This document shows positions 6,565 through 43,216 of a stretch of DNA of 43,216 nucleotides, piece after piece. The DNA lies in assembly GCA_030167865.1 (NCBI GenBank), contig JALAGF010003606.1, positions 62,001 to 105,216 of the forward strand, given 5' to 3'. The translations under genes and the position numbers were made by a program. Within the stretch, counting starts at the first letter, position 1, and every line of letters begins with the position of its first letter. This DNA is from Craspedostauros australis. Lineage: Eukaryota. The notes beneath the pieces are model-generated. The model worked only from the letters and a program-made list of their open reading frames with translations. It ran no database searches and was not told the origin of the DNA.

Positions 6565-7027
6565 GGTGCGGGTGTTTGGATGTGGGAGGATTGAATTGAG
6601 TTGGATGAAATACGCCGAGCGAGACGCAGTTAGGGCTGGGTCCTGTCGTCTTGGACAGTGTTTGTGACGAGCGTTGTTCTTGGTTGTTGTTGTTGGTGGT
6701 GGTGGCAACAGCACCAACCAATGCGATTGCGGGCGTTTGTGTGGAGCAGAACAAAAACAACAAAACGAAATTCAAAATTCAGATTTGACCGTTCGATGGC
6801 GAATGACTAATTCGATCAGTAATTGTTCGTTACAATTTTAAACGGACATATATACCCACAATGCGGTCCGATAACAAACGAAGCAAACCCGAAACGAAGA
6901 TTGCGATCTCTGGGCGTCCTTGTTCACGTCCCGCCCACCAAGTGGGCTGTTCCCTCATCCTCTCGTATTCGCAGCGCTTGTGCGGACGACCACTACACAC
7001 AGAGCATCCAGGAGCAAATCCAGTACA

Positions 7028-17394: not shown

Positions 17395-18420
17395 GGTCTC
17401 TGATGCCGTCTTGTCTATCAGATCTTGCTATGTGAAGTTGGTAGAATACGCTATTTGGTTTGTGCTGGAGGTATCCACGTGCCGTTCCAAATGTATTATT
17501 CTAGAATGTATTCTATGTGATGCCATTTCACACACGGGAAGTTGTTTGTTGGCATTCACACAGATGGGCTTCGACTAGTCGTTGTGCACACGAGGAGATG
17601 GTTGTGCAGTCGCACCATCCAGCCTACCTACTGTAGTCGTAGTCGTACGTACCAGCATCCATCCGTTCACGGCATGTCAGCTGCCCAATCTGCATGCAAT
17701 GAGACGACACCGATTGCGACCACAAGAAGGACCTCTCTCCTTGTCGTTTTCGCGACAGTGAGAGTCTTGGTGGTAGTGGTATCACGGTAGGTACAATGGT
17801 CGTGCTATCCACGACAACCATGATCATCATGTTCCTCATGTTCATCAACAGCCCTCCTTCAGAAGATCTCTCTTCCCCCTGCTTCCGCTCTTGACGACTT
17901 GGCGCCAAAACGAATTGATGTCTTCTGTGTGAAACACGATTGGAGAGGTTGATTTTTCTCGAATGCGTGACGCGTGAAGAATCACAGTTGACTCGAACGA
18001 TTCAAATCATATCGTTTCGGGTGGCTGCCGACTTGTCGTGCAAACACGCGCATGGTTCATGTGTGTTGAATTTTTGGTGAAGCCACGAACTGTCACAATG
18101 AGCAACAGTCTGTCTAATTAAGTCATGCAACGACTCATTTGAGACATTGGTGAGACAAGTACCATCTATGAAGAAAGCCGTTCCGCCACCAACGACCACC
18201 GAACTCGACGAAAATGTGAAAAATGATGCCGAGCACATGCAGCCTCACAAACCAACAGACATGCGGAAGCTGACGAGGCGAGATGACGGCTGCCGGCGAA
18301 CATCACACAAGCCAGGTGCCTGGCACAACACCTATTTGAACGATGACGGTCTATCTTCACGAACCTGGTTTCTTGCTTGCTTGCTTTCTTGCTTGCTTGC
18401 TTTCTCGCTTGGTCGGTTGT

Positions 18421-18440: not shown

Positions 18441-18672
18441 TTGATTGCCCTGTCTATCACAGTGGTGAAGTGCGACAGAGCGTGACAGAGATCATCGGTA
18501 TGATCCCATGCTCCATCTGAGAGTGAACAACCCAAAAGCAGCTTCCGCAACACGAGTAAACGGGTTCGTGGCAATCGCGTTCAGGTAGGAGAATAATATA
18601 ATCGTCAAGTGCTGCGGAACCAACAACAGGCAATGCCAACATCAGGCTGCAGGAGGATCCAGCCACACAGTG

Positions 18673-18699
18673 TCAGTATCAGTATCAGTATCAGTATCA
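18673..18699. repeat. Hexamer repeat (TCAGTA)x4.5 in the leader of the LRR gene
   Basis: Directly visible; explains the SVSVSV extension in the ORF track. Confidence 0.85.
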
Positions 18700-18720
18700 A
18701 TAGCAATAGGCGCCATCAAG

Positions 18721-21700
18721 ATGAACGCAAGGGAAGGACGCAGTGATTCGTGGACGGGACGGACGGTGGATCCGACAGGAAGGACAGTGACGAGCCCGCA
18801 CTTCGGAGCAGGAGACCGTCCTGATCCTCAAGGCCAAGCGCCTGCGTTTCGCGGATGGCGCCATGCTCCGCGTGGTGGATCGCTCCACAATCCCGGTTCC
18901 GTCCACTCTTCCAGCAGCGGCAGCAACGACAGCGGCAGGCACAGCGTTCCCAGTCTCGGCTTCAACCGTGCGAGCAGCAACGATCGCGATCAGCTGGGGA
19001 CGCAGGACGGCTTTGTCTTCAACAAGACACCCGTCAAGCCCGGCTTCGTCACCAACTTCCTGCGTGCGCCCAACACAACGATGGTCTCGTCGCTCTTCTG
19101 CGGTCTCTCCTTGCCTGCCGAGAATGGCGAGAATGGCGAGAATGATGACAGCACAAGTCCATCGCGTGCATGGCAAGCCAACCCACCCTCATTCAAGTAC
19201 GGCCAATCGGCTCGCGCCATTCGATCGTCTCGGTCGCAGGCTTCGACGGCGTCCACCGCATCGACGGGAGCATCGACGATCCTGTCGTCTTCCACCGCGG
19301 CCAGTCCAGCGCGGGAGGACTCCCCCCACAGTTCGTCGGCCGGCAGCCCGCTCCGCCCCAAGTTTCCCTACGATGAGAATGATGAAACGAACGACAGCTT
19401 CGAAATGAAGAAGGATGATGGCAACGTACGATCTGCGTCTGCCACTGTCAACGACGGATCAGTCTTCCATCCCAGGATTCTGCCTGCACAAGAGAGCCGC
19501 GACCACACACTCGGCATCCTTCCCAACCCGTACGCGGCAAAGCCTGCAACCTTGTCGGCCACGAACATGGGTCACAACGGCATCATGGACGACGACGACG
19601 ACGCCTCGCAGGCCACGACCGAATCCGCGACGCGCAAGAGCATCTTCAGCTCCGTCATGCTCGATGCCATGGATACCAGCGACGACTACGATGCGGCCAC
19701 CTACGGTCTCATCCAGCAGTACAGCCGCGTCAAACAGGAACCGCCCAAGAAGCGCAATCCGGTTGCCGATTTTTGCGGATTTCTCAATCATCAGAAGGAG
19801 GCTCCGCCACCGGTCGATTGCAACAACCTCAGCTTGTTGCATATATTGTCGCCGCCGGTGAAGCAAACAGCGTCCAAGCAACCAACTGTGGTCGCTGCGA
19901 CGCCGACGCCTGTGCAGGAACCAGCAATGACGCCACAACCAGACGCGGTAACATCTGCTCGACAGCGATCGACGACGCCTGTCCAAACCCCCATGCCAAC
20001 TCCAGTGCCAACTCCAGTGCCAACCCCGGAAGCATCGCCAGCGCAAAGTCCGAAGGCATCGCTGAGACGCATCGCAGTTTCGGAACCAGCGCCCACACCA
20101 ACGCCATCTCCAACCCCGACTCCACCACCAGCTCCAACTCCAACACAGATGCTGGAACGATCGCCATCTCCCGCGCGCATACCGATGCCGCTTTCAATCC
20201 GGGCACCGGAAATCACCACAACATCCACGCCCATGCCAGTGACACCGCGAGCACCAACACCGGCACCGCTCACGCCACTGCCAGGACCGGCTGCGTCGAA
20301 TCAAACGGGCTTCCTCACACTCTTTGATTCCGTCATGGCCGGCGCCAGCACACCGACCATCGAAAGGGATGACGCAGAGGTCGACAATCACTCCGTCCCG
20401 TCCTTGTACCGCCCGCGTGAATTGGAGAGCAACAGCGCGCCGCTCGTTCTCGATATGTATCAGCAGGAACAGCCGCAGTTGACACGTGACTGGCATCAAG
20501 CAAACTCCGCATCCGCCGAGCAACCAAACGTCTTGGGTGACGTCGACAACAGCATCGCGAACTACCACACCATGCACCTGCTGGGCGGCGACACCAGCAG
20601 CTCCGTGGGACCCAGCGCAGGTTGGGACGACACGGAGGCGCCGACATCCAACCAGCTCGCGGACCACGACAGCAACGAGAATTCAAATGACGAATCCGAG
20701 CGCATGATGCTGGCCATGTTCGCCAACGAGGATGGAACGGAAGCGCAGATCCAATCGCGCAACGATTCATTCGCGCAGCCGCGGTCGCCCACGCGACAGC
20801 GTCCGAACAACGAGTCGTCGGAACCAACGCAGAGCAGCTACCGCAAGCTCGTCGGCGACACGAGCCGAGCGGCATGCTTCTGCATCATGTTCACGATCTG
20901 CCTCCTGCTTGTCATACTGATCATGGTCATCCTGCACTTCTCCGGCACCGACGTGGGTTTTGGTGGATCCGACAACGACAGTCGCGCAGCGAGCGATGCT
21001 CAAGATCCCATCATCACGCAGTTCCCGTCGCACGCACCGTCGCACGTACCGTCGCTCGTTCCGTCGGTCGCTCCCTCCGTATCACCGACCGATTCACAGA
21101 CTCCCAGCTTTTCTCCTTCCGTGCGCAACGATCCCACGTTGGAGTTCTTCATGAGCCATCTTCCAACGTCAACCCGCACCGCCATCGACAACGACCCATC
21201 CTCACCGCAAGCATCTGCATTCGATTGGCTGCAGAACGATCCCAGTTTGCTGGATCTGTCGTTCGATCGTCGTATGCAGCGGTTCGTCCTTACCTTGCTC
21301 TACTTGTCGACCGAGGGTGAAACGTCATGGAAGAACAACGCGAACTGGACATCCTACGAGTCGCACGAATGCACGTGGTTCCAATCCCCGCCATCAACGC
21401 AACCAGTTTGCGCCCAGAACGGCACCTTGATCACGCTGGCGCTGGATGACAACAACTTGCGAGGAGACATACCTTTGGAGCTGTCCAAGATGACGTCGTT
21501 GCAATACGTCAGTTTGGCCAGCAACGGTTTGATGGGTCCAATCCCATCCGACCTTGGACTGCTTACCGATTTGCAGCATCTGAGCCTGTCCCAAAACACT
21601 CTTGAGCAAATGATTCCGACTGCGATTGGAAATGTGCGGCAGCTCACGCATCTCAATCTGCTGTCCTGCGCGCTGACAGGTCCAGTTCCAACCGAAATCG

Positions 21701-23403
21701 GGTACCTCACGAAACTGCGATACTTCTCCACCGCGCAGAATGGCCTCGATCACAGCATTCCCACCGAGATCGGGCGGCTGGTGGAACTCGAACTCCTGTG
21801 GATGCACAACAACCAACACGTAGGTCGTATTCCGTCGCAGATTGGCAATTTATTGAACTTAATGGATGTGCGTATGGACAGAAATCGGCTGACGGAATCC
21901 ATCCCATCCGACATTGGCAAGCTGCTGCAACTCGAAGTGCTCGACCTTGCATTCAACAACCTGGACGGGGTGCTGTCCGATGAGTTCTTCAATGCCCAGG
22001 CAATCAAGTATCTCGATCTCAAGAACAACCAACTGTCCGGAACGCTGTCATCCAACATCCGCACCATGACGAAAGCCAATCGCATCTTTCTGGAAAACAA
22101 CGACTTCCATGGCCCGCTGCCACCAGAAATCGGGTACATTCAGAACCTCACGGACTTTGTCATCCACGACAACAGGTTCAGCGGCACAGTGCCATCCCAA
22201 ATCTGCTCAACAGATGCCGACCCAAGCAGCGGAATGCAAGACGGAAACATCCCGGTGCTTGCCGGATTGGGCGTTGATCGATTCCTGGTGGACTGCGGCG
22301 AAGTCCAATGCGACGAATCGTGCTGCACCTGCCAATGCAAGCCTTTCACGCATTTCACCACCTTGATCACCATCGACGTGAACCGCCTGTTCCCAGATCT
22401 TGAGGATAGGCATATCAAGGTGCTGCAAGATGAATTTGTGAAAACGTACAACGATTTCGCCGACAAGAACTGCGATCCGTTTTACAGGAGCGTCAAGAGC
22501 GCAGAGATCGATTCGTTCGACCACACTTCCGTGAAGGGGAAGACCCTTGCGATGTTCAATGTCACCGGATGGTGCCAAGGATGCCCCGCGTCCGATGCGT
22601 CCATCTACGACGAAGATGCTCTGAAGGATCAGCTGGTGGGACGACCGGAAAGCAGCAGCTGCGAGTGCCCGAGGAGTTCATCCGTGAAGAGAGCACCGAC
22701 AGAGCGGGAGGTGGTTGATGCGTACCGCGCGGCCGTATTGAAGACGGGGCTGGTTGAACCCACCGAGGAACCCACAACATCTCCGTCCAATGTTCCTTCG
22801 AGGATGCCCACCGCATCGCCTTCAATGCATCCATCCACAGTGCCGTCCGTTGCACCATCGTCACTTCCTACCATGCGGCCCACAGGCGGCCCAACTTTCT
22901 TGCCGACATCGAATCCGACCTCAACGCCGACATCCCTGCCAAGTTCAAACCCGACCGCCCAACCCTCATCGCAGCCGACATCAGGACCGACAGTTGGGCC
23001 AACAACACAACCGTCATCTTTGCCCACGTCAAATCCCACATCGCAGCCGTCATCTTTGCCCACGTCGAACCCCACATCACAGCCGACATCTTTGCCCACG
23101 TCTCAGCCAACATCCATTCCGACTTCGCAACCAACGTCGCAACCAACGTCACGGCCAACGTCACAGCCAACGTCACAACCAACATCACGGCCAACATCAC
23201 AGCCAACCGCCAGACCAACGTCGCAACCAACGTCACGGCCAACCGCCAGACCAACCTCACAGCCAACCGCGAGGCCAACAAGCCGACCAACATCACGGCC
23301 AACCTCGAGACCGACAAGCCAGCCAACGAGGACGCCAACAGCAAAACCGACAGAACTCCCCACCGCACCTCTAACTCAGGGACAACAAGGCACTGGCATC
23401 TGA
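18721..23403 (+). CDS. Membrane-anchored LRR receptor-like protein without a kinase domain
   Basis: About 715-aa disordered N-terminus, one TM (20869-20940), PS-repeat stalk, diatom-type cap (PQASAFDWL...QRFVL..LY.ST.G..W....NW......C.W), a run of 24-aa plant-type LRRs (L..N.L.G.IP.EIG.L), a Cys-containing domain and a PTSQPT tail. ATG at 18721. Confidence 0.9.
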   Translation: MNAREGRSDSWTGRTVDPTGRTVTSPHFGAGDRPDPQGQAPAFRGWRHAPRGGSLHNPGSVHSSSSGSNDSGRHSVPSLGFNRASSNDRDQLGTQDGFVFNKTPVKPGFVTNFLRAPNTTMVSSLFCGLSLPAENGENGENDDSTSPSRAWQANPPSFKYGQSARAIRSSRSQASTASTASTGASTILSSSTAASPAREDSPHSSSAGSPLRPKFPYDENDETNDSFEMKKDDGNVRSASATVNDGSVFHPRILPAQESRDHTLGILPNPYAAKPATLSATNMGHNGIMDDDDDASQATTESATRKSIFSSVMLDAMDTSDDYDAATYGLIQQYSRVKQEPPKKRNPVADFCGFLNHQKEAPPPVDCNNLSLLHILSPPVKQTASKQPTVVAATPTPVQEPAMTPQPDAVTSARQRSTTPVQTPMPTPVPTPVPTPEASPAQSPKASLRRIAVSEPAPTPTPSPTPTPPPAPTPTQMLERSPSPARIPMPLSIRAPEITTTSTPMPVTPRAPTPAPLTPLPGPAASNQTGFLTLFDSVMAGASTPTIERDDAEVDNHSVPSLYRPRELESNSAPLVLDMYQQEQPQLTRDWHQANSASAEQPNVLGDVDNSIANYHTMHLLGGDTSSSVGPSAGWDDTEAPTSNQLADHDSNENSNDESERMMLAMFANEDGTEAQIQSRNDSFAQPRSPTRQRPNNESSEPTQSSYRKLVGDTSRAACFCIMFTICLLLVILIMVILHFSGTDVGFGGSDNDSRAASDAQDPIITQFPSHAPSHVPSLVPSVAPSVSPTDSQTPSFSPSVRNDPTLEFFMSHLPTSTRTAIDNDPSSPQASAFDWLQNDPSLLDLSFDRRMQRFVLTLLYLSTEGETSWKNNANWTSYESHECTWFQSPPSTQPVCAQNGTLITLALDDNNLRGDIPLELSKMTSLQYVSLASNGLMGPIPSDLGLLTDLQHLSLSQNTLEQMIPTAIGNVRQLTHLNLLSCALTGPVPTEIGYLTKLRYFSTAQNGLDHSIPTEIGRLVELELLWMHNNQHVGRIPSQIGNLLNLMDVRMDRNRLTESIPSDIGKLLQLEVLDLAFNNLDGVLSDEFFNAQAIKYLDLKNNQLSGTLSSNIRTMTKANRIFLENNDFHGPLPPEIGYIQNLTDFVIHDNRFSGTVPSQICSTDADPSSGMQDGNIPVLAGLGVDRFLVDCGEVQCDESCCTCQCKPFTHFTTLITIDVNRLFPDLEDRHIKVLQDEFVKTYNDFADKNCDPFYRSVKSAEIDSFDHTSVKGKTLAMFNVTGWCQGCPASDASIYDEDALKDQLVGRPESSSCECPRSSSVKRAPTEREVVDAYRAAVLKTGLVEPTEEPTTSPSNVPSRMPTASPSMHPSTVPSVAPSSLPTMRPTGGPTFLPTSNPTSTPTSLPSSNPTAQPSSQPTSGPTVGPTTQPSSLPTSNPTSQPSSLPTSNPTSQPTSLPTSQPTSIPTSQPTSQPTSRPTSQPTSQPTSRPTSQPTARPTSQPTSRPTARPTSQPTARPTSRPTSRPTSRPTSQPTRTPTAKPTELPTAPLTQGQQGTGI
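22770..23370 (+). repeat. Coding degenerate 12-nt tandem repeat encoding (P-T/S-x-x)n mucin-like tail
   Basis: Repeated CCAACGTCGCAA/CCAACATCACGG-type units translating to PTSQPTSRPTAR... Confidence 0.9.
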
Positions 23404-25246: not shown

Positions 25247-25734
25247 CTTCCCAGTAAATCGTGAAATTCAGAGCGGTGCAGAAGAAACATCGCGTGTTAG
25301 TGAACGTCAGTGAAATCATAGCAGCAGCAGCAGCAGCGGCGGCGGCAGCAGCGTTGGCGCTGATACTAGGGTGGCGCGAGAGAGCTGCTCGTACACGCAC
25401 CGCTGTGCCAAAGTCAGAGACGACTCGAACGCGTTCATTTTTGGGCTGCAACCATGCGTACCGTCAGATAGCGCCACACGTCAAGCGGCCTGTCCGAGAA
25501 CTGTTTGACGCTCAGCAACAACCAACAACCGGCAACGCCACGAAGAAGCACCGCCGAAACAGTCAAAGCCATACATAACCGATATCATCAAGCCAGGTAT
25601 TCAAGCACACGCGCACGCGTACGGGTGCGCATTGAAGTTCATGGTCTTCATTGTAGTTGCACACCGCCCAACTCCATAGCATAACATAGTACAGCGCAGT
25701 CCTCATACAGCACAGCGCTGTGGGTGCAACTCAC
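25247..25734 (-). other. Spliceosomal intron (488 nt, phase 0)
   Basis: GTGAGT donor, ACTAAC branch-like motif about 50 nt before the AAG acceptor, and an in-frame join KGWNRK|ANLRDPLHHL. Contains a GCT/GCC triplet run. Confidence 0.7.
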
Positions 25735-27417
25735 TTTTCGGTTCCAGCCCTTCTGTTGGACTGATCGCTTGATTCGAGATGCATTGGAAGTCTTCTGCCA
25801 ATCTCGGAGCGTATTCTGCGGGATGTCGTACTTTATCGACAACTCTCGTATCGTGCAGCCAGGATTCTTGGCTTCTCGCAATATCCTGGATTTAAGCAAG
25901 TTGTCGTATCGTCTGCGGTTCTTCTTGGCCTTCTGCACCGTCTTTGCTTTCGCTCGTGATTGGGACGGTACCGTTGCTTGCAGTTCGGGGGATGGGGACG
26001 GCGCAGACGCATGGCTTGAGCTTTCGGACGCTCCATTCGTCCCTACCGCCTGTGGATATTGAACAGATGAAGGAAAGGAGCTTCGTTGATGTTGATGTTG
26101 ATGCTCGAAGTCGGTCATGCGAGTGTCTCTGATCTGGTTGGCCATGCTGTTAGTTGTTGGTGGGCCTGTTTGCCCAGCTGCAAAAAATGGATCTGCCGCA
26201 AAACTCCGTGGTGTGGAGATAGCCATCATGTCTGGGTTTGCTGCTCGTGCTGCGTTAGACCCCGCAAGTACATGAGCCTGTGCGTCTGCTGTCGTGCTGA
26301 ATGGTAAGGGATGGTCCTGAACAGGAAGTAGCGATGATATGCCTGCAATTGCGTTTGCATTCGCATTCGCACTTTCATTGGTCGATTTGGAGCCCAGAGG
26401 TAGAAGCTCTAACGCCGACGTCCACGAGGTGTGGGGCATTGCCATGGCTGACCAGGGAGGTGATAGTGATGGTATCTGTGACGACACAGGCTCGAAATCA
26501 TTGCTGGCGATTGCATGTCCTCTCGCACCAGCTCGTCGGCGCTCATGAGAAGGGTCGATGATCATTTCGTTTTGTTGACGTCCATGGTCATATCTGAAGA
26601 TGTTTGGATGTGCAACGTGCCCGCCTTGCCTTTGATATGTGGAATCGGGATTTGCGCTCGTTCGGTGCCTGTTTTCATCTGACTGGTGCTGAGGATGACC
26701 GTGATGATCATGCTGATGCTGATGGTGCCGTTGATGCTTGTGACGAGCGGAGTGATCAAGAACGTGGCGGCGGTTGTTAGTGTTGTTCGTTCGGGAGTCA
26801 ATATGGCCTGGAGTCTGCAGGGAGGCTTGGAACGGGGACCGAGCTGTCGTTGATGGGGTATCAATGTCAAAGATATCATCGTACGCATCAAAGTCTGCAT
26901 CTCGCGATGCGTGGACTTTCTGCGAGTCTTTGTGCTCTCGTTGGTGACTTTGTGGCGGCCATGAATCTGCGCCTGGCCGTCCATGATGAGATTGTACGGT
27001 GGCAACATTTGAAATCGGAAATGCTGATTCCAGTTTCGTTGAATCTGTCTCTTGTTGCTCCTGCTGCGGTGGCGGCGGCGACCGCTGCAGTGCTGCTCCG
27101 TCATCGCTCTGTCCCTGCAAATACGTCTCTCTGTGTTGCTCGGAGAGCGTTCCCGTTGGTTGCTGCGTTAAACTGCTGCAGCCATCGTTGTTGACATCGT
27201 TGTTGCTATTGTCATTGCTGCTGCTTTTGGCATCGGCGTGGTTGCTGCCAAGAATGCCATCATCAGGAGTGCTACCGGTGTTCGGCGCATCGGTCTGTGA
27301 TCGTCCCTCTGCTGGTGTCGAGGAGCGAGTTGCGCCACGAAGACTGACTTCGTCGTCGTCGCCATGGTTCGTTGTTTCTGTTGTTGATGAACACTGAGAA
27401 TTGCCATCGTGAGACAT
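25735..27417 (-). CDS. CENP-B/pogo-type HTH DNA-binding protein, exon 1
   Basis: Long disordered region from ATG 27417, then a psq/CENP-B-N-like HTH RRRYDNLLKSRILREAKNPGCTIRELSIKYDIPQNTLRDWQK. Phase-0 donor GTGAGT starts at 25734. Confidence 0.78.
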
Positions 27418-29479
27418 GCTTGCTACTGAGATACTCGTACTTTTGGTAGTACGAAGTGTGTGAGAGGAGCCTCCCTCACCTGTGTGCACCGAGTTCCGCT
27501 GTCTTTCTGTGGTCGAGAAGCGGAAAAATGTGTGGTGGTGGAAAATGGCATCGGAAGTGTCTGTTTCCAAAATGTTGGACACCCACGGGAGTGTGTTCGT
27601 CATTCCTTTGATGCCTCTCCATGGTTGGGTGGCGACCAATCCACGAATACGAGACCCGACCACGCAAAAGGGCGAATCGCCATACCTACGAAGAAAACTA
27701 CGAGACAGTACACGGGGTTGAAGGACAATTTTGCCTCGTCATCCTCACCAGTTTGTTGGGACTTTTTCTCCGATCTTCGCTGTGCCTGGAGAAACGTGAA
27801 CCCTTCCTGTGCCGGAATTGACGTGAATTTCGCTGGTTATTTCGGTCAGCCTCAACATGGTCCCATGACTCTACGATCGATGCTGTAATGTTTGTGCAAA
27901 CACGAGTACACTTCTAGCCGGGAGAAACAGGGTTCATGGGAAAGCGAAGAGGAGACATCAGAGACAGAGACACGCCGACAGAAAACAGCAAACAAGAGAC
28001 ACACGAAGAGGAACTCCCATGGTGGGGAGATGTCGTAGCCTACTAGTATTGTACTCGTACGAGCTGTGATGCGAGTAGATCGTAGATGTGGTGGCTTACT
28101 GATTCTGATACGAATACAAGTAAATCCTCAGCCTGATCCAGAAGTCTGTCGTCGTACACAGTGTCGTGGTATGGAACAAAGACTCCTCAACTTTATTCCA
28201 CTCTCTTCTACTCTGTGGGGATAGAGAGCAGCAGACCATCGGAGTGACCTTTCAGTCGACTGGAATACGTGTACCACACGTTGCACGTTGGTGTTCGGAC
28301 CGTATGGTAAATTACAGGACTCTCAAGTGTGTACAAAAGTGGGATACTCTATTACATCGCCGCAGAATCACGGTCGGGGATGTGTGATGCGGTATGCCCG
28401 CCATGGGTTTGAAACAGGCATCGATTCAGCCGCCTCCCGAGGGGCACCGCGATCTTCGTTTCTTGTTGGCGCCAATTCTCCCAGAGATCCTTCCAGAGCA
28501 CCACAGAGTACTTTCTTCTCCTTCTCCGCCGCCTGCTCGCCGTCGCCGTCATTGCGGTCTTCCCCTTTCTCATTCTGATTGCACAATCCCGAGTATGCAG
28601 GCGTCTCCATCTTCCCTCATCGTACCGATTTACGATCTGTTTAGTATGGAGCGTGAGCCCGTACCTCCTGAGCCATCTCTAGCCTCGCCTCGCCTCAATT
28701 CGCCCAGCATGCCAAGTCCCCCTCTGCTTGCCAGGAACCGGATACGCTGTACCTTCTGCAGCGTTGGGACGGAGGGAGACGATTCTATCCTCCTCTCCTC
28801 GCCTCTGTTCGGTGCAGCTGCCGACCGATTTGGATTGAAGTCGGATGACAAAAAAGAGAGATCGATGCAGATTCAAGAAAAAAAGACGATGATGTGCTGG
28901 CAACAAGCGAATGAGGACGGGCATTGCCCACGAAACAATGGATTAGACCGGCTATGATGGACGACTGGACTTGGGAGTGCATAGAATATCAGATTGGTGA
29001 ACTTCATGTCGCCATTCCAAGGTTGCATGATGTTTGTGACGTCTGACGTGAGAGGAGGTACTTAATGAAGGAGGTTGTCTCTCGTTCTCTTCCATCGTTG
29101 TGAGCTGTTCTTCTCGGCCAAGGGACTCCAATAGAATAAACTGTTCTTTCTTTTGCATTCCAAAAGATGTCAAGCCATGCATCCATATCCTCGATATATC
29201 TATATGTGCTCTGCGGCGCCCATAATGGACACCTGCGGTCGAATGCCCACGCTGGTCAGGAATGCTCCGAGATGGCACTCCCCCTTGAATGCTTTGGAAG
29301 AGAATGTAGACCAGACAAGATCACATTTACTCCGCGGGCGCGCTGCTCTACTCGATTCGGCCCAGCCACTGCAAAACCGTCCGGGCAACATTGCTCTCGT
29401 TGCTGTCGTGCTATCCCTCCACGCGAGACTGTCGTTGTTCCGGTTCATAGTAATATAATATGTTGTTGCTTCGGTAGAT

Positions 29480-30260: not shown

Positions 30261-30620
30261 AATCAACCCGACCCGGTTAACACAACCACACACTCAAACA
30301 ACGACAAAACACAACACAAAAAAGCTCCAAGGCAACAGGATCACAAACCCAACAATACCACGGTATCTCAAACCCCCACTAACAATCGAGGTGACAAAAC
30401 AAACACAAACACTGGGCAAGCGCTTCACTCTGTTGGTCTACTCGACTTCACACCATACCTACCGATACCACCACCACGCCACAGTCTCCATAAAACAGAC
30501 ACCATCCACTAAATCTAACTTCCTCAACGCACACAACTTCAAGACACGAAACGTCACAACACACACAAACCATCCAGCATCAACAACAACAGCAGCAGAA
30601 GCAACAACAACAGCAGCAAC

Positions 30621-31784
30621 ATGACTTGCAATTCAATCCTCGAGCCGATCACCACGGACATGGGCGCACTGAAACGTCCCGCACCGATCCACGTCTTCCC
30701 CTGCAAGCTGTTCACCATGCTGAGCAGCACGGAGGAGGACGGCAAGGAGCACATCGTCTCGTGGCTGCCCAACGACCAAGGCTTCCGCGTTCATGACCAG
30801 AAGGCCTTCGTCGCCGAAATCCTCCCAACCCACTTCCGACAGAGCGCGTACAGATCATTCCAGAGACAGCTCAACATCTACGGCTTCGCGAGGTGTCGGT
30901 CGGGCGTGCACTCGGGCTCATACAGCCACCCACTGTTCCTCAGGGGACGCATGGACCTGGCGGCGAAGATTATGAGAACGAACTGCGGCAGCAAGACGCA
31001 CAAGAAGCTCAAGCACATCAGCATCGCCAAGATCGACGAAGTCACCGAGGACGACATGGCCTTGATCAAGACGCGCCTGGAATCTCACACCTCCTCCGCG
31101 CCAATGACGACGCTGTCCAGTAGTGCCAGCACGCCGATCGCCTCGACTTCCTCCACTCCGCCAGCTCCTTGCCTCGTCTCTTCGCGCTCTGCTCCAGTGC
31201 GCTCCGAGCGTGCTTCGCGATCGCGCAGTAAGATCCTGAAGAAGGCCCACTCCGCATTCACCGGCGAGAACGAGAGGCAGGAGGAACAGTGGAAGAAGCA
31301 GCACCTCGCCAACCAGCCGGACGGCGATGACACGCTAATACCGCCGCCGAAGCTCTCCCTCGTGTCATCTGTCTCGCTGACTCTCAAGAAGCACAGCCCG
31401 CTTCATTTCATCGACACCGACCTTGGCACGCGAGAGATCATGGATCAGATCGACCGCAATGTGTTCGATCTGTTCGAGTTCCAGCCGGAACCTGTGCCAG
31501 AGCCGGAGCCAGTCAAGATCGACGCGGCTCTCGTCATCAGAAATATGCAGTTATACCTGCAAAACGGAGGAGATGTGAGCCCCGACCAGGGAGACAGTGT
31601 CAATTGCGATTACAACGCAGAGGACGATCAGGATACCCATTGTTTCGGCTGCTTTCCGGAAGTGACCCCGTCTTTGGTACCAACGTTCGGGGGCAACCAT
31701 ATCAGCCTGCTGGGTCCAGACAGGCAGAATGGCTTCCTCAGCTACGATAGATCTTCCACTATCGGATCATCTGTAGAGCTCTAA
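30621..31784 (+). CDS. Heat shock transcription factor (HSF DNA-binding domain)
   Basis: FPCKLFTML...IVSWLPNDQGFRVHD...F...ILPTHF.QS.YRSFQRQLNIYGF...YSHPLFLRG. Intronless, preceded by an A/C-rich leader. Confidence 0.95.
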   Translation: MTCNSILEPITTDMGALKRPAPIHVFPCKLFTMLSSTEEDGKEHIVSWLPNDQGFRVHDQKAFVAEILPTHFRQSAYRSFQRQLNIYGFARCRSGVHSGSYSHPLFLRGRMDLAAKIMRTNCGSKTHKKLKHISIAKIDEVTEDDMALIKTRLESHTSSAPMTTLSSSASTPIASTSSTPPAPCLVSSRSAPVRSERASRSRSKILKKAHSAFTGENERQEEQWKKQHLANQPDGDDTLIPPPKLSLVSSVSLTLKKHSPLHFIDTDLGTREIMDQIDRNVFDLFEFQPEPVPEPEPVKIDAALVIRNMQLYLQNGGDVSPDQGDSVNCDYNAEDDQDTHCFGCFPEVTPSLVPTFGGNHISLLGPDRQNGFLSYDRSSTIGSSVEL

Positions 31785-34930: not shown

Positions 34931-36373
34931 TCACATATCCTGTTGCCACATGAACCGCCTGCGTTCGCCGGGTTCCGCCACGGCCCCTGATCTCTTGGCG
35001 ATGTCGTAGCACTTGTCCAGGAAGGTCATGTGCGAATTGGCTTCTTGGCGGTTGCGACGCGCGACGCTCCTCGAATGCCAGCGCCACAAGTACATCGTCG
35101 CGGATTTGCCGGCGATCGTCCAGAAACCTGCCGATGTGGCGACGGCGGCTTGGCGCACCGTGTCGCCTTCGGCGGCGAGGTTGGCCTGCTTGAGCCAGAA
35201 ACGCGTCATCCACGTCGAGATCTCCATGAACTGTCTCGTGTCGCGACAGTTGGCGAGGTAAATGGACCACGCTGCGATCCGCTCGATGATCGCCAGCACG
35301 AGCAGCACCGTGATGGTGTGCAGGATCATGGGCTCGCGGCAGTAGATGGACGCCGCGACGATGATGCTCGCGAGCGCGTATCCGTTGACGCCTCCGTAGT
35401 AGTGGAAGGTCGACTTGAGGCGAACCCCGGGCAGGTCCTGATTCCGATAGCGACGCCGAAACGTCGCAAAGTAGACGTACACCGCGACGACACGAGCGGC
35501 GACTTCCCGGGGCGGTGCCGTGATGAGCAGGACGGCGCGCCTTGGCCATCCCTCGTCTTCCAAGACGGTATCGGCGTCGGACATGGCATCCGAGTCGGCA
35601 TTGAGATTGGACGACGACGAGCCCACGGTGTCAGTGTCGCTATCGCCGTCCAACTCCAATGAGCAGTCCGATGCCGATCCCAGCGACTTCCGAGAACTGT
35701 GCTGGTGAGATGCGTCCAGATTCATGGAGTCTCCATCTCGCATCTCCCCCTTGTGCTCCTTGGGTTCTTCGTTGGTATCATGGACACCGCCTTTCTGCGG
35801 GTTCCACCGTTGCTGGAACTTCCGTTGTTGCTTCAACTGCTTGCGTTGCCTCAGCATCGTGCGCTCCTCATGCAGAGTCGGCTTGGATGTTGGGCTTTGG
35901 CGTTCACGGTGATGATGTTTGTGTCCATGGTGATGGTGATGGTGTTTGTGATGATCGCGATGGTTGGAGTCAAAGTCGTTGTCATGAGTTCTGATGGTGC
36001 TGTTGCTCTCGCCGCTGACCACACGACCACCTCCCAACGACGAAACCGAGGAGGACACCGAAGATGTGTCCTTGGCTGTCTTGGCATGCATCGGAGAGGT
36101 GAAGGATCTGCTGGAGGCCAACGACGATGACTCCGTCCCGGTGCCATTGCCCCAGCGCAGCCGGTATCTGCGTCGGCGGCGACTGCGATTCAAGCTCGAG
36201 GCAGACGGCAGGCTCCCCACAACGCTGACGGCCTCGCTCTTGTTACTGGCACGCCAGCTGTCGTCGGTGGGTTCGTGTTGCCATCGTCGCCGCGGCATGC
36301 AGCAAGTGAAGGCCACCACATCATCCTGCGGCATGGTGTCTTGCGATGGTTTCTGCTCTTTTGGCGGTCCCAT
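34931..36373 (-). CDS. Hypothetical membrane protein with disordered His/Ser-rich N-terminal half
   Basis: 480-aa ORF with GC-rich third positions in the C-terminal half, a His tract and a hydrophobic hairpin (YALASIIVAASIY / ILHTITVLLVLAII). No family recognised. Confidence 0.7.
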   Translation of the reverse strand: MGPPKEQKPSQDTMPQDDVVAFTCCMPRRRWQHEPTDDSWRASNKSEAVSVVGSLPSASSLNRSRRRRRYRLRWGNGTGTESSSLASSRSFTSPMHAKTAKDTSSVSSSVSSLGGGRVVSGESNSTIRTHDNDFDSNHRDHHKHHHHHHGHKHHHRERQSPTSKPTLHEERTMLRQRKQLKQQRKFQQRWNPQKGGVHDTNEEPKEHKGEMRDGDSMNLDASHQHSSRKSLGSASDCSLELDGDSDTDTVGSSSSNLNADSDAMSDADTVLEDEGWPRRAVLLITAPPREVAARVVAVYVYFATFRRRYRNQDLPGVRLKSTFHYYGGVNGYALASIIVAASIYCREPMILHTITVLLVLAIIERIAAWSIYLANCRDTRQFMEISTWMTRFWLKQANLAAEGDTVRQAAVATSAGFWTIAGKSATMYLWRWHSRSVARRNRQEANSHMTFLDKCYDIAKRSGAVAEPGERRRFMWQQDM

Positions 36374-36421
36374 GGGTGGATTCGATGGGTATTCTCGTGT
36401 TGATTTGTATTACGTCTGGTA

Positions 36422-37211: not shown

Positions 37212-37759
37212 ATGACGATGATGACGGCGCTGACGAGAACAGGTGCAGTGAGAAACATCGGAAGGTTGGGAAGCAGTGGTACCCAAGCACCATCGCAGTT
37301 GATCCACCACGTCCGGCCGCTCAGCTTCATCTCTGATCGCAGTCTGCACTCTGCTGTCATCCATAGCAACAGCACAACGAATACAATCCACAGCGCCAGA
37401 ATGAGCGCCGAACAAAACGCCAAATCGGCATCGCGCGACAAGCACCTGCCATCGATGATCGTGTTCGATCTCGACGATTGTCTGTGGACGCCCGAGATGT
37501 TCGAGCTGCCTGGTTTGCCCAGCATCGCCGTGCATGACAAAGTGACCAACTTGGTCGTCGGCCTGCGGGTTCCCCATGCAGACGACACGGTGCGGCTGTT
37601 CGATGGTGCCAGGAAGGTGCTGACCGAACTCGCCACGAATCCAGCCTATCGCGACATCACATTGGCGACGGCGTCGTCGTCGTTGGAGCCATCGTATTCG
37701 TACGCCTGTTTGGCAGCGTTGCAGATTCTGCCCGACACGACGGTGGCCGATATGATGAG
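37212..37759 (+). CDS. MDP1: Magnesium-dependent phosphatase 1 (HAD IIIC), exon 1 only
   Basis: HAD motif I PSMIVFDLDDCLWTP, then VRLFDGAR.VL and motif II LATASSS. Similarity ends at donor AG|GTATGT (37760). The motif III Lys and motif IV FFDD are absent from the window. Alternative ATG at 37401. Confidence 0.82.
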
Positions 37760-38055
37760 GTATGTGGATGAGTGGTGTGTTGTCTATGGTGTGATTGGAA
37801 TGCGGCACAATTGAGTCCGGGCTGTGATGATGCACTCAACTATTGCATCATTTATCGTAGTCTCATCAAAGCACCACATCACTCACCCAACTTCTGCTCT
37901 GCTTCTGGATGGAACCATCCTCACACCGATCTCGACTTGGCTCCACACAACGAATACAATGCATTATGCATAGAATCGGAATTCCGACAAACCAAACCAA
38001 AGAAAAATAAAAACTAATTAATCCCCTAACACAACACAAACAACAGCAAAGCAAA

Positions 38056-40668
38056 ATGACTTCGAACAACCAACCCAACACGAGCCACCGCGAAGAGACC
38101 GAACCCGAGGAAGTACCAACTTTGGAGCCTCCGACCAAGGAGCCCGACAAACCCCCAGCCAAAGGAAGTATAGATGCAAGCAACCAGCACCGAGCTCGAC
38201 GGCAAGCAAAAAGAGCGATCTCATACGACGGCGGAATGGAAGAGAACGACCCCGACGATGTGTCCATCACATACAGACCTCGATCCAACACGTTCAAGAC
38301 AGCAGCCAACAAGACAGGAGTCGAAGTAGAACCATTCGAGAAAGCCACCGGCGACGGATCCATCGACAGAGCTGCGAAGGCGGCATGGAAGGCGCGAGCG
38401 ATATGGTATAACAACGACGAAGCAACAGCGGACCGAGAGAATCCAACAATCAAGCAGTGGGAGCACTTTTTCAGGGACCTCGCGGACGGCAGAGTGACCG
38501 CCTTCGGACCGATCACACTACCCAGCAAAGACCCCACAAGGTTGCGTCTCCTACAGTTCGTGCTCAATGTGGCATCAACAAACCCGCATGAAGTATTCCG
38601 CGCGCATCTCAACAGCAACGGCACAGTGAAAAGCGCACGCGCAGTCAAAGTCTGGAAAGCAGCGAACCGAGTCCTTGGATCCAACTACGACCTAGGGGCA
38701 GCACCTGCTGAAGACGCCGATGGCAACGAAACACGCATGGAAGGGCTCACGCTACAATCCAACGAAGATTTCCCAACAGACCCAAACGAATCACACGGAC
38801 CAGCAGCAGCCTCAATGCCAACTCATCTGAACACAGAATCGCTCAGCACCGACAGCGACTCATATACCAGCAGACAACCAACGAAAAGAACCAGGTTCAA
38901 ATCGCCGAAGAGCACCACAGACTCGCACCGAGTCAGCCAGCAAAGCGGAGGCAGTTCGCAGTCCACAGGATCAACACGAAGCAATGACTCATCCACGGAC
39001 TCTGGCATCACCAACGCCCGCCAACGCAAGAATCGACAAGCGACAAAGACGACAAGAACAGATGATCACTCAGTCAGCTCTGACGAAGAGTCCAACACGT
39101 CGCAAACAAAAATAGCGCCGCCAAGACACGAATTCACTACCCGATTCACCATCAAGCTCAACGTCGACAGAACCGAGGAAGACACAACGGCAGCAGTCCG
39201 AGATCGCATTCGACGCTGGTTCAGGCAAGTCCGGCGAATCGACCCGTCCGCGGTGATACTGCCATGGAGAGAGTCCAGCAACACGGGACCGCACATAGCA
39301 CACTCCGGGCAGATCCCAGAAAGAATGGACGAACTCCGAACCTTCTTCCCCGGACTCCGAGCACCGTCAGGCGAGACTGGAATCACCTACGCCAAAGTGC
39401 GCATCACCACCAGGGAAAACCCATTCGACATCACGGCGGACAGGAACTCAGAACTCAATGCATACTACTACAACGAACATGAAGGGTTGTACGAGGCGCA
39501 GCTCCAGGATGCAGAAGAAGTCAAAGAAATCGGATTCTTGCTGTACTCCGGAGGGTTCACCGACGTCGACGGCACAGTTGACATCATCAACAGAAGCCTC
39601 CGACGCAACAACAGCCAAATCCGAGTGGGAGGCAAGATCAAAAACATAGTTCAGGTCAGCACGGAAACAAGAGAAAAATTCAGGGAGGGCAAGAGGCACT
39701 GGACAGTGCAACCTTGGAGGGCAGTCAAACTTGAGGTTGAACGATCACAGGCATACAGCGCAGTCACTGAGGTGGCCAATCTGTTCAACACCAGAGAAGA
39801 GCGACCAGGAGCAACCAACTTCAGGTTCCTACCAGACAAAAAGTACGAACAGATGTCACGAAAGAAGGCCGAATTCAGAGAAGGGCTAGTGGCCAAGCAT
39901 CAGGCTATACTGTCAGTGATCGAGTACTCAGACGCCGATGGAGTGATCCACCTCGACAAGAAAGTCAAAGGCCGCGACAACAAGTCCATCACACTCAGGA
40001 AGCTCATCCTCAGAGAGACCAACGACAAAGGCAAGAGGATCTTTCACAGCGTAGACCGCGCAAGAGGAACAGACGACCAAGTCGTGGCCCACTCCTTTCC
40101 CGAATACCAGGAGGAGGCCAAGCACTACATGAGTCTGCTGCCGGCAATCGCGCGCCACAAAGTGGGAGAGAAGGCCGAGAAATGGTTCAGCCCTGAGGTG
40201 TGGATCGCCAGCCTCAACATCGTGCATGACCCGGCCACCAACGATTACACATCTCCAGATGTCCACAATCTCGAAGACATCGCCGACGAAGAATTTCCGG
40301 CCAGTGTGATAATCACCAACATCCCGGACATGATGCCCACCACTCATCGACCAGCAGCCCTCGACAACAGAAGCATCTTCAACCCCAACTCAACTGTCGG
40401 CACAACCAACCGGTCCATCGATTCTGCCTACACAGCAGCCCCCAGGCAGGAGACCGACAACCAACAGGCGGAGACCGACTCAACGGAACGAGCTCCCCAC
40501 CACGGCTCGGCAAGCCCCGAAGGGATACTCCGCACAGGATCCGACACAAGGTACAGTCAACAACAATCCCGGGAAGCCCAATTGCTCGCACAGGTCCAAG
40601 CACTCCGACGGGAGCTCGGCAAACCCAACGGCGACCCTCCGCAGCCCAATGGAGGACAGTCACCATGA
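38056..40668 (+). CDS. Retrotransposon ORF1 protein (870 aa)
   Basis: Long ORF directly upstream of, and overlapping, the APE-RT ORF, with the same compositional bias. Ordered central region (IDPSAVILPW, IGFLLYS, IFHSVD, KWFSPE). Confidence 0.85.
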   Translation: MTSNNQPNTSHREETEPEEVPTLEPPTKEPDKPPAKGSIDASNQHRARRQAKRAISYDGGMEENDPDDVSITYRPRSNTFKTAANKTGVEVEPFEKATGDGSIDRAAKAAWKARAIWYNNDEATADRENPTIKQWEHFFRDLADGRVTAFGPITLPSKDPTRLRLLQFVLNVASTNPHEVFRAHLNSNGTVKSARAVKVWKAANRVLGSNYDLGAAPAEDADGNETRMEGLTLQSNEDFPTDPNESHGPAAASMPTHLNTESLSTDSDSYTSRQPTKRTRFKSPKSTTDSHRVSQQSGGSSQSTGSTRSNDSSTDSGITNARQRKNRQATKTTRTDDHSVSSDEESNTSQTKIAPPRHEFTTRFTIKLNVDRTEEDTTAAVRDRIRRWFRQVRRIDPSAVILPWRESSNTGPHIAHSGQIPERMDELRTFFPGLRAPSGETGITYAKVRITTRENPFDITADRNSELNAYYYNEHEGLYEAQLQDAEEVKEIGFLLYSGGFTDVDGTVDIINRSLRRNNSQIRVGGKIKNIVQVSTETREKFREGKRHWTVQPWRAVKLEVERSQAYSAVTEVANLFNTREERPGATNFRFLPDKKYEQMSRKKAEFREGLVAKHQAILSVIEYSDADGVIHLDKKVKGRDNKSITLRKLILRETNDKGKRIFHSVDRARGTDDQVVAHSFPEYQEEAKHYMSLLPAIARHKVGEKAEKWFSPEVWIASLNIVHDPATNDYTSPDVHNLEDIADEEFPASVIITNIPDMMPTTHRPAALDNRSIFNPNSTVGTTNRSIDSAYTAAPRQETDNQQAETDSTERAPHHGSASPEGILRTGSDTRYSQQQSREAQLLAQVQALRRELGKPNGDPPQPNGGQSP

Positions 40669-43216
40669 TAGTCAGCCACATACGGGCACAGTCCAGCCCG
40701 AACCGCGACGGACCCAACAACACCGGACGCTCGAGATCGGATGATTCGAACGACCAACTACGACACCTGGGGCAACGGACGGACAACAAGCCGGCCACCC
40801 AAATCAGAATAGCCGCCCTCAACGTGGGCAGCATACCACCGGACGCCACAGATCCAAAGAACGACGACCTATGGCAAACGATCAAGCAGCACAAGATCGA
40901 CATCCTCATGCTCACAGAGGTCGGCCTCAACTGGAGCAAAATCTCCACGGAGGAAACCCTGAACCGCAGAGCAGACCAGCATCTGAAGATGACAAAGACA
41001 AGCACAGCCCACTGCCATACAATGAACCACAGCCCAAGACAATGGGGAGGCACAGCGATAGTGGTGCACGGAAAAATTGCAGGAAGAGTCCTCGCTCGAG
41101 AAAACGACCCGGAAAAGTGCGGAAGATGGGCGAGCGTACTCCTACAAGGCAGGCAGGGCATCAAGGTCCGCGCGGTGTCGGTGTACGTCCCCAACAAATC
41201 GACGCACACAGCGGGCACAGTCTACAACCAACAAGCCGTCCGAGCTGCGCTGCGACAGTCTACGTTAGACCCCATCGACCTCCTCATCCAAGACCTCAGC
41301 GCCCAAATAACGCAATGGAAACAGGCAGGGGAGTCAGTCGTCATCGGAGGAGACGTGAACATGGATATCAGGAGGTCCAAAATTGCCAACATGATGTCAA
41401 CAGCAGGCCTACACGAACACCACACCGCGGCCATAACGCAACCCTACGCTACTATGATCAGAAACAGGAGCAACATCCCCATTGATGGCATCTGGACCAC
41501 GAGCGATGTCAGACCGACACAACTTGGTGCCACACCCTACGGCAGTTGGGACCACAGGACGATATGGATGGACGTGGGCGAAGCCAGCCTCTTCGGGCCC
41601 ACCAAACTGCCTACAACGCCGTTCCGTGGTCGCAGACTCCAGATGAACCAACCAGCAACAGTACGGAAATACAAGCAAGCCTACACCGCCCAAGCAGAAA
41701 CACTCCAGCTCCTACGACGGGCGCAGGCGCTCAATGACGAAATCGGAGCAGGCCCAATCTCGACGCTGCAGGCTCAGCAACTGGAAGCTCTGGACAACGA
41801 CAGAGTGGCTGCCATGTTGCAAGCAGAGCGCAAGTGCCGGAAAGTGCGTGCAGGACATGTGCCATTTTCACCGCTAATGGCGAAGCTGCACTGGGAACAC
41901 CAGTTCTGGACCCTCAGCGTCAAACGCCGAAAGGGACATCAGATCCACGGGCGGACCATCGACAAAGCCAAAAAGAAGGCCAAGTTAACAGTACGCACCA
42001 AGGAAATGACGACGGCAGAAATGCAGCAGCGAAAGAACGCGGCATGGAAGGAGTACAAACACGAAAAACGCAACGCAGACAACCACAGAAGGACGTTCTT
42101 GGCGGAAGATGAAGAGGAAGAAACACGATCAGGGCGCGACACATCCAAATACCGAGCGCAAATACTCCAGCGCGAAGAGACCAAAGCCACATACAGACGC
42201 ATCAAGTGGTCGCTACAAGCCGATGGATCAGACGCGCAAGTCTCGATAGTGGTGAACGACGGCCCCGGAGGCGACGGCCAGCTTCTCACTTCGGGCGAAG
42301 ACGTCGCCAAAGCATGCTGCAACAACAATGTGGACAAGTACAGCCAGGCATGGAGAGCGGAGGTGTGCCAAAGGCCCTTGAAACACGCGCTTGGACGATA
42401 TGGCACCAACACTGCAGCCACGGCTGTGCTCCAAGGAATCGTCCCAACTCAAATCGAGACCAGCACCCGGGACCTCCTCCAGGCACTCAAACAGCCTGCG
42501 ACAGCCACGGAATGGAACCCCAGTCAACTCCAGATCAGTCCGTCAGACCACTCCCAAGGATGGGCAAAGATCAAGGAGAGCACCTCGTCCGGGCCGTCAG
42601 GAGTCCACTTCGGGTGTTGGAAAGTGAATGCTACCGACACAACATTGGCAACCATCGATGCCATCCTGCGCGAGATCCCGTATCGCACAGGGTACAGCCT
42701 CAAGCGATGGCAACAGTGCGTGGACATCCAGCTCCGTAAGAAGCCTGGAGATCTATCAGTCACCAAGACCCGGACCATCGGACTCATGGAGGGCGATTTC
42801 AACATGAATAATCGCCTCCTGGGGAAGCAGGCCCGTGCTCATGCCGAGGCACAAGGCACCATCGCAGCCGAACAATACGGCAGCAGGAAGGCCCACACAG
42901 CCCAAGAGGTCCTGCTCAACTCGGTGCTAATCGACGACATCCACAGGGTCACTGGTGAACACTATGCAGTATGCTCGAACGACGCGAAAGGATGCTACGA
43001 CCGCATCGCCCACTCCATCTTCAGCTTGGCCCTTCAACGACAAGGAGTACCCACGCCGCCAATCGCCAGCACGCTAAACACGCTCCAGTCTATGACACAC
43101 AGAATCCGCACAGCGGCCGGAACATCAGAAGCATCGTACTCGGGCAAACAACGCCGCAACCACCTGCAAGGCCTCGTGCAAGGACTCGGATCGGCGCCAA
43201 CCGGTTGGCTACTCAT
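40665..43216 (+). CDS. Retrotransposon ORF2: apurinic endonuclease-like domain + reverse transcriptase (3'-truncated by the window)
   Basis: Manual translation is open for 850 codons to the edge. APE motifs IRIAALNVGS, DILMLTEVGLNW, QWGGTAI, GRWASV, VSVYVP, VIGGDVN, PIDGIW, DHRTIW. RT motifs ESTSSGPSGVHFG, RTIGLMEGDFN, EQYGSRK, SNDAKGCYDRIAH, GLVQGLGSAP.GW. Confidence 0.95.
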   Translation, partial: MIVSHIRAQSSPNRDGPNNTGRSRSDDSNDQLRHLGQRTDNKPATQIRIAALNVGSIPPDATDPKNDDLWQTIKQHKIDILMLTEVGLNWSKISTEETLNRRADQHLKMTKTSTAHCHTMNHSPRQWGGTAIVVHGKIAGRVLARENDPEKCGRWASVLLQGRQGIKVRAVSVYVPNKSTHTAGTVYNQQAVRAALRQSTLDPIDLLIQDLSAQITQWKQAGESVVIGGDVNMDIRRSKIANMMSTAGLHEHHTAAITQPYATMIRNRSNIPIDGIWTTSDVRPTQLGATPYGSWDHRTIWMDVGEASLFGPTKLPTTPFRGRRLQMNQPATVRKYKQAYTAQAETLQLLRRAQALNDEIGAGPISTLQAQQLEALDNDRVAAMLQAERKCRKVRAGHVPFSPLMAKLHWEHQFWTLSVKRRKGHQIHGRTIDKAKKKAKLTVRTKEMTTAEMQQRKNAAWKEYKHEKRNADNHRRTFLAEDEEEETRSGRDTSKYRAQILQREETKATYRRIKWSLQADGSDAQVSIVVNDGPGGDGQLLTSGEDVAKACCNNNVDKYSQAWRAEVCQRPLKHALGRYGTNTAATAVLQGIVPTQIETSTRDLLQALKQPATATEWNPSQLQISPSDHSQGWAKIKESTSSGPSGVHFGCWKVNATDTTLATIDAILREIPYRTGYSLKRWQQCVDIQLRKKPGDLSVTKTRTIGLMEGDFNMNNRLLGKQARAHAEAQGTIAAEQYGSRKAHTAQEVLLNSVLIDDIHRVTGEHYAVCSNDAKGCYDRIAHSIFSLALQRQGVPTPPIASTLNTLQSMTHRIRTAAGTSEASYSGKQRRNHLQGLVQGLGSAPTGWLL

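What the first reader, a model, noticed from the sequence alone, without database searches (positions are those of the whole stretch)
37760..43216. Apparently intact non-LTR retrotransposon inserted, sense orientation, in the intron of a housekeeping MDP-1 gene
Seen: MDP-1 similarity stops exactly at a GTATGT donor (37760), the C-terminal HAD motifs are absent, and about 300 nt later two uninterrupted retroelement ORFs begin. Known: HAD IIIC enzymes need motifs III and IV. Inference: a young element sits inside the intron, so the gene either splices across more than 5.4 kb (other introns here are under 0.5 kb) or this allele is knocked out or prematurely polyadenylated.
Basis: partly seen in the sequence, partly recalled or inferred. 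Interest (0 to 1): 0.72.

Follow-up and report, generated by a model that had tools for sequence, protein, structure and literature searches.

The report
Jumping gene inside a diatom intron
A full-length 8.4-kb retrotransposon has recently landed just before the end of an intron in a diatom phosphatase gene and probably disables that copy of the gene, which is an ordinary kind of insertion mutation.

Summary
Confirmed. The contig ends at the window end, but the rest of the locus is on contig C6374: the element's 3' half, a (TA)n tail, a 15-17 bp target-site duplication, then MDP1 exons 2 and 3 with the missing HAD motifs. The element is about 8.42 kb: an 870-aa ORF1 and an ORF2 with AP endonuclease, RT, RNase H fold and CCHC. 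It turns a 222-nt intron into about 8.66 kb. It sits between the intron's branch-like motifs and the acceptor, 11-12 nt before the AG. Its own 5' end supplies the next AG, so I infer a splice into the element and a truncated 131-aa product. A CTAAC in its 3' end leaves rescue splicing possible. No read evidence was obtained, so splicing and zygosity are untested. The family has at least 27 5' ends and 37 3' ends, no shared target motif, and swapped ORF1/ORF2 halves between lineages. 'Housekeeping' is unsupported: three other MDP1-family genes exist. It is probably Ambal clade, but that could not be tested. Ordinary recent insertion.

The parts
37401..37759 (+). MDP1-family (HAD IIIC, PF12689) exon 1: 119 codons plus 2 nt, with motif I (DLDD) and motif II (ASSS)
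   Evidence: Pfam E 5.9e-14; best homolog 66% identical, named from Cylindrotheca closterium; single place in the genome. Motif numbering is recalled.
37760..37969 (+). 5' part of intron 1: GT donor at 37760; branch-like CTCAC at 37882 and 37920; no AG between 37872 and the element
   Evidence: The same intron position shows as read-through in 3 of 23 aligned homologs (P0003, P0012, P0014), so the intron predates the element.
37954..37970 (+). Target-site duplication, left copy (15-17 bp; the end bases are shared with the tail and the element start). Right copy at C6374:15112-15096
   Evidence: Longest shared string 17 nt
37970..38055 (+). Element 5' end and 86-nt A/C-rich 5' UTR. Its AG at 37972-37973 is the first AG after the native branch-like motifs (candidate trap acceptor). 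AATAAA at 38006
   Evidence: Family boundary; 25 of 27 5' ends begin ATAG; AG and AATAAA positions
38056..40668 (+). ORF1, 870 aa, no cysteine, no known domain; conserved core about aa 350-760
   Evidence: No Pfam hit, no PDB hit with a 40-sequence profile, no usable Atlas hit; 177 relatives at E<=0.001; 77-81% identical to five sister ORF1s
40400..40500 (+). Approximate switch point: upstream is nearest to one sub-lineage, downstream to another
   Evidence: Informative-site tracking, binned identity, two trees
40665..43216 (+). ORF2, 5' part: AP-type endonuclease (about 40818-41534) and start of RT (about 42738-43202). Continues on C6374 (minus strand) with the rest of RT, RNase H, CCHC, stop, about 75 nt of 3' UTR and a (TA)n tail
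   Evidence: Pfam; fold matches to R2 and LINE-1 ORF2p and to RNase HI; catalytic columns conserved
42646..43216 (+). 571-bp overlap with the end of contig C6374, which carries the element 3' half, the acceptor, exon 2 (C6374:15084-14976), intron 2 (232 nt) and exon 3 (from 14743)
   Evidence: 571 of 571 identical, but the same block is also 100% identical in C979 and C4055. The join therefore rests on the TSD and gene continuity, not on the overlap.

Best explanation
Shown: a full-length, about 8.42-kb autonomous non-LTR retrotransposon (ORF1; ORF2 with APE, RT, RNase H, CCHC) is inserted in sense orientation, with a (TA)n tail and a 15-17 bp duplication, in the pre-existing 222-nt first intron of an MDP1-family gene, 11-12 nt before the acceptor AG. 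Inferred from known LINE biology: it arrived by target-primed reverse transcription, recently, at an unselected site. Inferred and untested: the allele is a loss-of-function. The native branch-like motifs now precede the element's own AG, so exon 1 is spliced onto the element's fifth base, gains 12 codons and stops (131 aa, without motifs III and IV), or the transcript ends inside the element or is silenced. The cell tolerates this because of an unassembled empty allele, paralogs or dispensability.
For: TSD, tail and exons 2-3 on C6374. Exons and splice sites are intact, and both ORFs are open in all readable sequence, so the insertion is recent. The native CTCAC lies 62 nt before the native acceptor and 54 nt before the element's AG, with no AG in between. 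In 4 of 4 other introns measured, the acceptor follows an AG-free zone of 65-105 nt containing a CTNAC. The filled intron would be 30-50 times longer than those introns. 15 of 27 5' ends pair with a 3' end by a 13-19 nt duplication, and the sites share no motif. Precedent in humans: insertions into the acceptor or polypyrimidine tract disrupt splicing, and intronic L1 lowers mRNA by elongation defects or premature polyadenylation (PMC3219598, passages read).
Against: No transcript or read evidence was obtained. The element's 3' end carries CTAAC 61 nt before the native acceptor, almost the native spacing, which could rescue splicing. The branch points are motif guesses from four introns. No empty allele is assembled: exon 1 has one place and exons 2-3 have 1 match of 1 candidate. 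This does not fit a simple heterozygote, though short bubbles are often dropped. A run of about 150 N near the end of ORF2 is unread.
Confidence: 0.65

Rival explanations
1. The allele stays functional: the whole 8.66-kb intron is spliced out, using the CTAAC in the element's 3' end as a replacement branch point and the native acceptor.
For: CTAAC at -61 against native CTCAC at -62 and CTGAC at -63 in intron 2; no AG in the last 50 nt before the acceptor. All exons intact. No empty allele found in the assembly.
Against: Two AGs follow the CTAAC within 10 nt. The first AG after the native branch-like motifs is the element's. The intron would be far longer than the four measured (163-286 nt). 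AATAAA follows the ORF2 stop. CTAAC occurs in only 11 of 24 3' ends, so it is more likely part of the family's conserved end than a splicing aid.
Confidence: 0.2
2. The filled allele is simply silenced (element methylated, gene not transcribed or transcript degraded), so no chimeric splice product forms.
For: General knowledge of transposon silencing in diatoms (recalled); a stop after 131 codons followed by kilobases of trailer would invite decay (inference).
Against: Nothing measured. The family has several intact members (3 of 8 near-full-length copies), which suggests it escapes silencing at times.
Confidence: 0.12
3. Assembly artefact: the element was attached to the gene by a mis-join through repeats.
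For: Fragmented assembly (6734 contigs). The 571-bp overlap is shared by other copies. The copy is mosaic.
Against: Both unique flanks, on separate contigs, run into opposite ends of the element with the same 15-17 bp duplication, and the exons continue in frame. A mis-join would not create this. Only the interior path could be mixed.
Confidence: 0.03

Closest known systems
Ambal clade of non-LTR retrotransposons (Repbase; 'CRE-Ambal' in repeat annotation)
   Same: Listed as a non-LTR clade (PMC4455052, table passage), restricted to protists (PMC4438587, table passage) and reported as abundant in the diatom Pleurosigma (PMC12803021, passage). The diatom host and two-ORF APE-RT-RNase H layout fit the description I recall; that description comes from no call.
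   Different: No Ambal reference sequence or definition was available, so clade placement by RT phylogeny was not tested.
LINE-1 and R2 (solved non-LTR proteins)
   Same: Best fold matches of the ORF2 RT part (E 1e-15 to 4e-12); like L1 it has an APE, two ORFs, a C-terminal CCHC and TSDs of about 15 bp.
   Different: Only 11-17% identity; has an RNase H domain, a (TA)n rather than poly(A) tail, an 86-nt 5' UTR and an unrelated 870-aa ORF1; no site-specific target as in R2.
De novo L1/Alu insertions at 3' splice sites (NF1)
   Same: Retroelement placed in the acceptor region of an intron, disturbing splicing (PMC3219598, passages).
   Different: In NF1 the result is exon skipping. Here the gene is short, and the predicted result is splicing into the element's own 5' AG.
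MDP-1 / Acid_PPase family (PF12689, HAD IIIC)
   Same: Exons 1-3 give about 202 aa with DLDD, ASSS, the conserved K and FFDD.
   Different: One of four family members in this genome; substrate and essentiality not shown.

Membership tests
Autonomous non-LTR retrotransposon (APE type) | Non-LTR-type reverse transcriptase | tested here: met
   Pfam RVT_1; YVDD with VDD invariant in 92 aligned relatives; the top 14 fold matches are R2 or LINE-1
Autonomous non-LTR retrotransposon (APE type) | AP-like endonuclease upstream of RT | tested here: met
   PF03372 E 5.1e-9; the family profile's best PDB hit is 2v0s, named LR1, E 0.005
Autonomous non-LTR retrotransposon (APE type) | Simple-repeat 3' tail and variable-length TSD | tested here: met
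   (TA)n tail in the 3' ends shown; 13-19 nt duplications for 15 of 27 5' ends
Autonomous non-LTR retrotransposon (APE type) | Current mobility | not testable with these tools
   Open ORFs and exact TSDs suggest recency; no reads or population data
Ambal clade | RT groups with Ambal reference elements | not testable with these tools
   No named reference among the 120 listed relatives or the ten clusters looked up
Ambal clade | ORF2 with APE, RT and RNase H (definition recalled, not from a call) | tested here: met
   The RNase H domain model (pLDDT 80.7) matches RNase HI folds at E 5.6e-7 to 1e-5; D-E-D-H-D columns invariant or nearly so. By sequence alone Pfam RNase_H hits only 1 of 25 relatives and not this copy, and phmmer against PDB found none.
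Ambal clade | Diatom host (recalled; consistent with PMC12803021) | tested here: met
   The best named MDP1 homologs are from diatoms
MDP-1 / PF12689 | All four HAD motifs | tested here: met
   Motifs I-II in exon 1, K and FFD in exon 2, final D in exon 3; motif assignment recalled
MDP-1 / PF12689 | Phosphatase activity or housekeeping role | not testable with these tools
   Three paralogs present; no expression data

The most novel reading that the evidence does not exclude
The family's ends act as splice modules. The 5' ATAG captures the host donor and places the whole element, less four bases, under the host promoter (a self-driving gene trap), while the 3' TAAC end can stand in as a branch point. 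One allele would then yield both a host-driven element RNA and, across a 8.66-kb intron, normal MDP1 mRNA, in a genome whose measured introns are under 300 nt.
Probability: 0.08. Interest if true: 0.55.

Novelty: new member of a known kind. Interest (0 to 1): 0.22.

Why it matters
As it stands, this is one more recent insertion allele from an active diatom LINE family. Its modest value is as a ready natural test, by three RT-PCR primer pairs, of whether a diatom can splice a 8.7-kb intron and of how it picks acceptors. The family also shows many full-length copies, ORF1/ORF2 exchange between lineages and an ORF1 of no known fold, which would interest transposon specialists more than this insertion does.

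Tried and rejected
Reads: the run search listed one run with a share of 0.11 and no RNA holder on record; no reads were laid, so this is no evidence either way. Empty allele: none in the assembly; not decisive. Exon 1 carried by other copies (5' transduction): none, exon 1 has one place among 29 matches. Target specificity: no shared motif in 27 5' flanks; 3 of 15 paired sites lie in frames open for 150 codons or more on both sides, and the rest were not classed as intron or intergenic. RNase H by sequence search: nothing; found only by fold. ORF1 identity: nothing in Pfam, PDB or the Atlas. RNA structure at the ends: z -0.44 (3') and -1.81 (5'), not significant. The 571-bp overlap was rejected as proof of the join because other copies share it. 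Literature: no paper with Ambal, non-LTR and diatom as whole words; six with Ambal and transposable elements, of which five were read at the Ambal passage and none defines the clade; the listing for a diatom intronic insertion showed no relevant title; some searches were seen as listings with abstract starts. Passages of PMC11842555, PMC5029228 and PMC7017206 added nothing. One review sought by a recalled DOI is not held. No supplements were read. Three look-ups of earlier findings returned nothing.

Full report
Observation. An MDP1-family reading frame starts at 37401 and matches Pfam Acid_PPase over profile positions 2-101 of 169. Exon 1 ends at 37759 in phase 2, before the GTATGT donor. The best homologs are diatom proteins at up to 69% identity, and the second half with K...FFDD is missing from the window. 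ORF1 (38056-40668, 870 aa) and ORF2 (from 40665, open to the end) follow. A genome search with 37300-38300 gave 29 matches: only the window itself covers the gene part, and most others begin at window 37969-37970, which fixes the element's 5' end.

The rest of the locus. The window is the end of contig C3606. A search with PF12689 gave 8 matches, one of which, on C6374, encodes the missing part: exon 2 is 73% and exon 3 47% identical to the best homolog. Upstream of exon 2 lie the element's 3' half, a (TA)n tail and a second copy of the 15-17 bp that precede the element in the window. The end of C6374 overlaps window 42646-43216 with no mismatch, but that block is also identical in C979 and C4055, so the join rests on the duplication and on the in-frame exons. 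The element is about 8.42 kb, including about 150 unread N near the end of ORF2. The empty intron is 222 nt and the filled one about 8.66 kb (corrected by one base for the donor position). The three exons add up to about 202 aa with all catalytic motifs. Three of 23 aligned homologs read through at the same intron position, so the intron is older than the insertion.

The element. ORF2 has an AP endonuclease and an RT by Pfam. A model of its last 1169 readable residues (pLDDT 84) matches R2 and LINE-1 proteins best. A separate model of the domain after the RT matches RNase HI, and its D-E-D-H-D residues and a CCHC motif are conserved across 25 and 92 aligned sequences; sequence searches alone missed this domain (1 of 25). 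There are 227 relatives among 8000 scored candidates, many 1800-2000 aa long, none with a clade name among the 120 listed. ORF1 has 177 relatives but no known domain. This layout in a diatom fits my recollection of the Ambal clade. The papers I could read only list Ambal as a protist non-LTR clade, abundant in one diatom (passages of PMC4455052, PMC4438587, PMC12803021), so I put membership at about 70% and leave it untested.

The family in this genome. There are 27 5' ends among 29 matches and 37 3' ends among 53 matches, with 40 of 52 candidates scored; both are lower bounds. 25 of 27 5' ends begin with the same four bases. 15 of 27 pair with one of 24 located 3' ends by a 13-19 nt duplication, and the sites share no motif. 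Of 8 near-full-length single-contig copies, 3 have both ORFs uninterrupted, 1 runs through a gap and 4 are broken. They are 71-75% identical to this copy in DNA over the window part, while five ORF1s are 77-81% identical in protein, so several lineages have stayed under selection. This copy's first 300 nt agree with one group at 12 of 12 fixed sites, but its last bases agree with another at 2 of 2. Trees place it with the first group at the 5' end (support 86/83) and with the second in distal ORF2 (97/96), where the first group is about 70% identical. The switch is near 40400-40500, if contig C586 belongs to the first group, which is assumed. Halves have been exchanged near the ORF1/ORF2 border; which lineage is the recombinant is unresolved, and the interior path could be affected by assembly.

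How it most likely affects the gene. The insertion is 11-12 nt upstream of the acceptor and downstream of two CTCAC motifs (37882, 37920). In the four other introns I measured (163-286 nt), the acceptor follows an AG-free zone of 65-105 nt that holds a CTNAC. In the filled allele the first AG after those motifs is the element's own, at 37972-37973, 54 nt from the nearer CTCAC; the native spacing was 62. Splicing there adds 12 codons and a stop at 38008-38010, giving 131 aa without motifs III and IV, 45 nt before the ORF1 start. The only two sense AATAAA in the readable element are at 38006 and just after the ORF2 stop; whether diatoms use this signal was not checked. Against this reading, the element's 3' end has CTAAC 61 nt before the native acceptor, so a rescue splice is not excluded, although two AGs follow it closely and only 11 of 24 3' ends have CTAAC. 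All of this is inference from motifs. Human precedent for acceptor-region insertions and for lowered mRNA from intronic L1 is in PMC3219598 (passages).

What stays open. No reads were laid, so splicing, expression and zygosity are unknown. The assembly holds no empty allele, which does not decide the matter. Three other PF12689 genes exist, so neither 'housekeeping' nor a cost of loss is shown.

Verdict. A real, recent, full-length LINE insertion at the 3' end of an old intron, probably a null allele. It is a new member of a known kind. Interest 0.22; the bolder splice-module reading has probability 0.08 and would merit 0.55.

Noticed in passing
window 37970-43216 and family copies (L003, L004, L065, L095 against L093, L099, L067, L057): ORF1/ORF2 halves are exchanged between sub-lineages, with a switch near 40400-40500; direction unresolved.
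   Followed up: partly
window 38056-40668: ORF1 has a conserved core of about 400 aa with 177 relatives and no Pfam, PDB or Atlas match; not folded.
   Followed up: partly
family 5' ends (L063-L085): At least 27 5' ends against 37 3' ends, nearly all starting at one base: a high share of full-length copies for a LINE family.
   Followed up: partly
L020 (C6374:14975-14744): MDP1 intron 2 lies after FFD in phase 0, whereas paralog C5657 and 7 of 23 aligned homologs point to an intron 5 nt further on: a possible near-intron pair or slide.
   Followed up: partly
window 37373-37390 and 37946-37963: An 18-nt direct repeat (17 of 18 identical) before the MDP1 start codon and in intron 1, overlapping the target-site duplication.
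   Followed up: no
window 40665-40668: ORF1 stop and ORF2 start overlap as ATGA, suggesting termination-reinitiation (mechanism recalled).
   Followed up: no
L008 / L023 (C1134, C801): A sister copy interrupts a frame open for 357 and 212 codons on its two sides; by eye it resembles a piggyBac-type transposase (recalled, not searched).
   Followed up: no
window 34931-36409 (minus): 492-aa ORF with a His-rich stretch and no Pfam match, divergent from MDP1 about 1 kb away.
   Followed up: no
window 1-31784: Ordinary neighbours by Pfam: neutral ceramidase (3-1979), SAP/DUF6434 (4865-5707), Gaa1 (6875-9091), DUF6824 (11896-15336), LRR plus PT repeats (18589-23403), HTH_Tnp_1 (25648-27738), HSF (30519-31784); 15583-17427 and 3265-4548 have no match.
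   Followed up: no
L020 2563-4161 (minus): A UDPGP-family pyrophosphorylase gene lies downstream of MDP1 exon 3 on C6374.
   Followed up: no
G000 C799/C4278 and C2770/C2771: Contig pairs with identical scores, so the assembly holds some redundant sequence.
   Followed up: no
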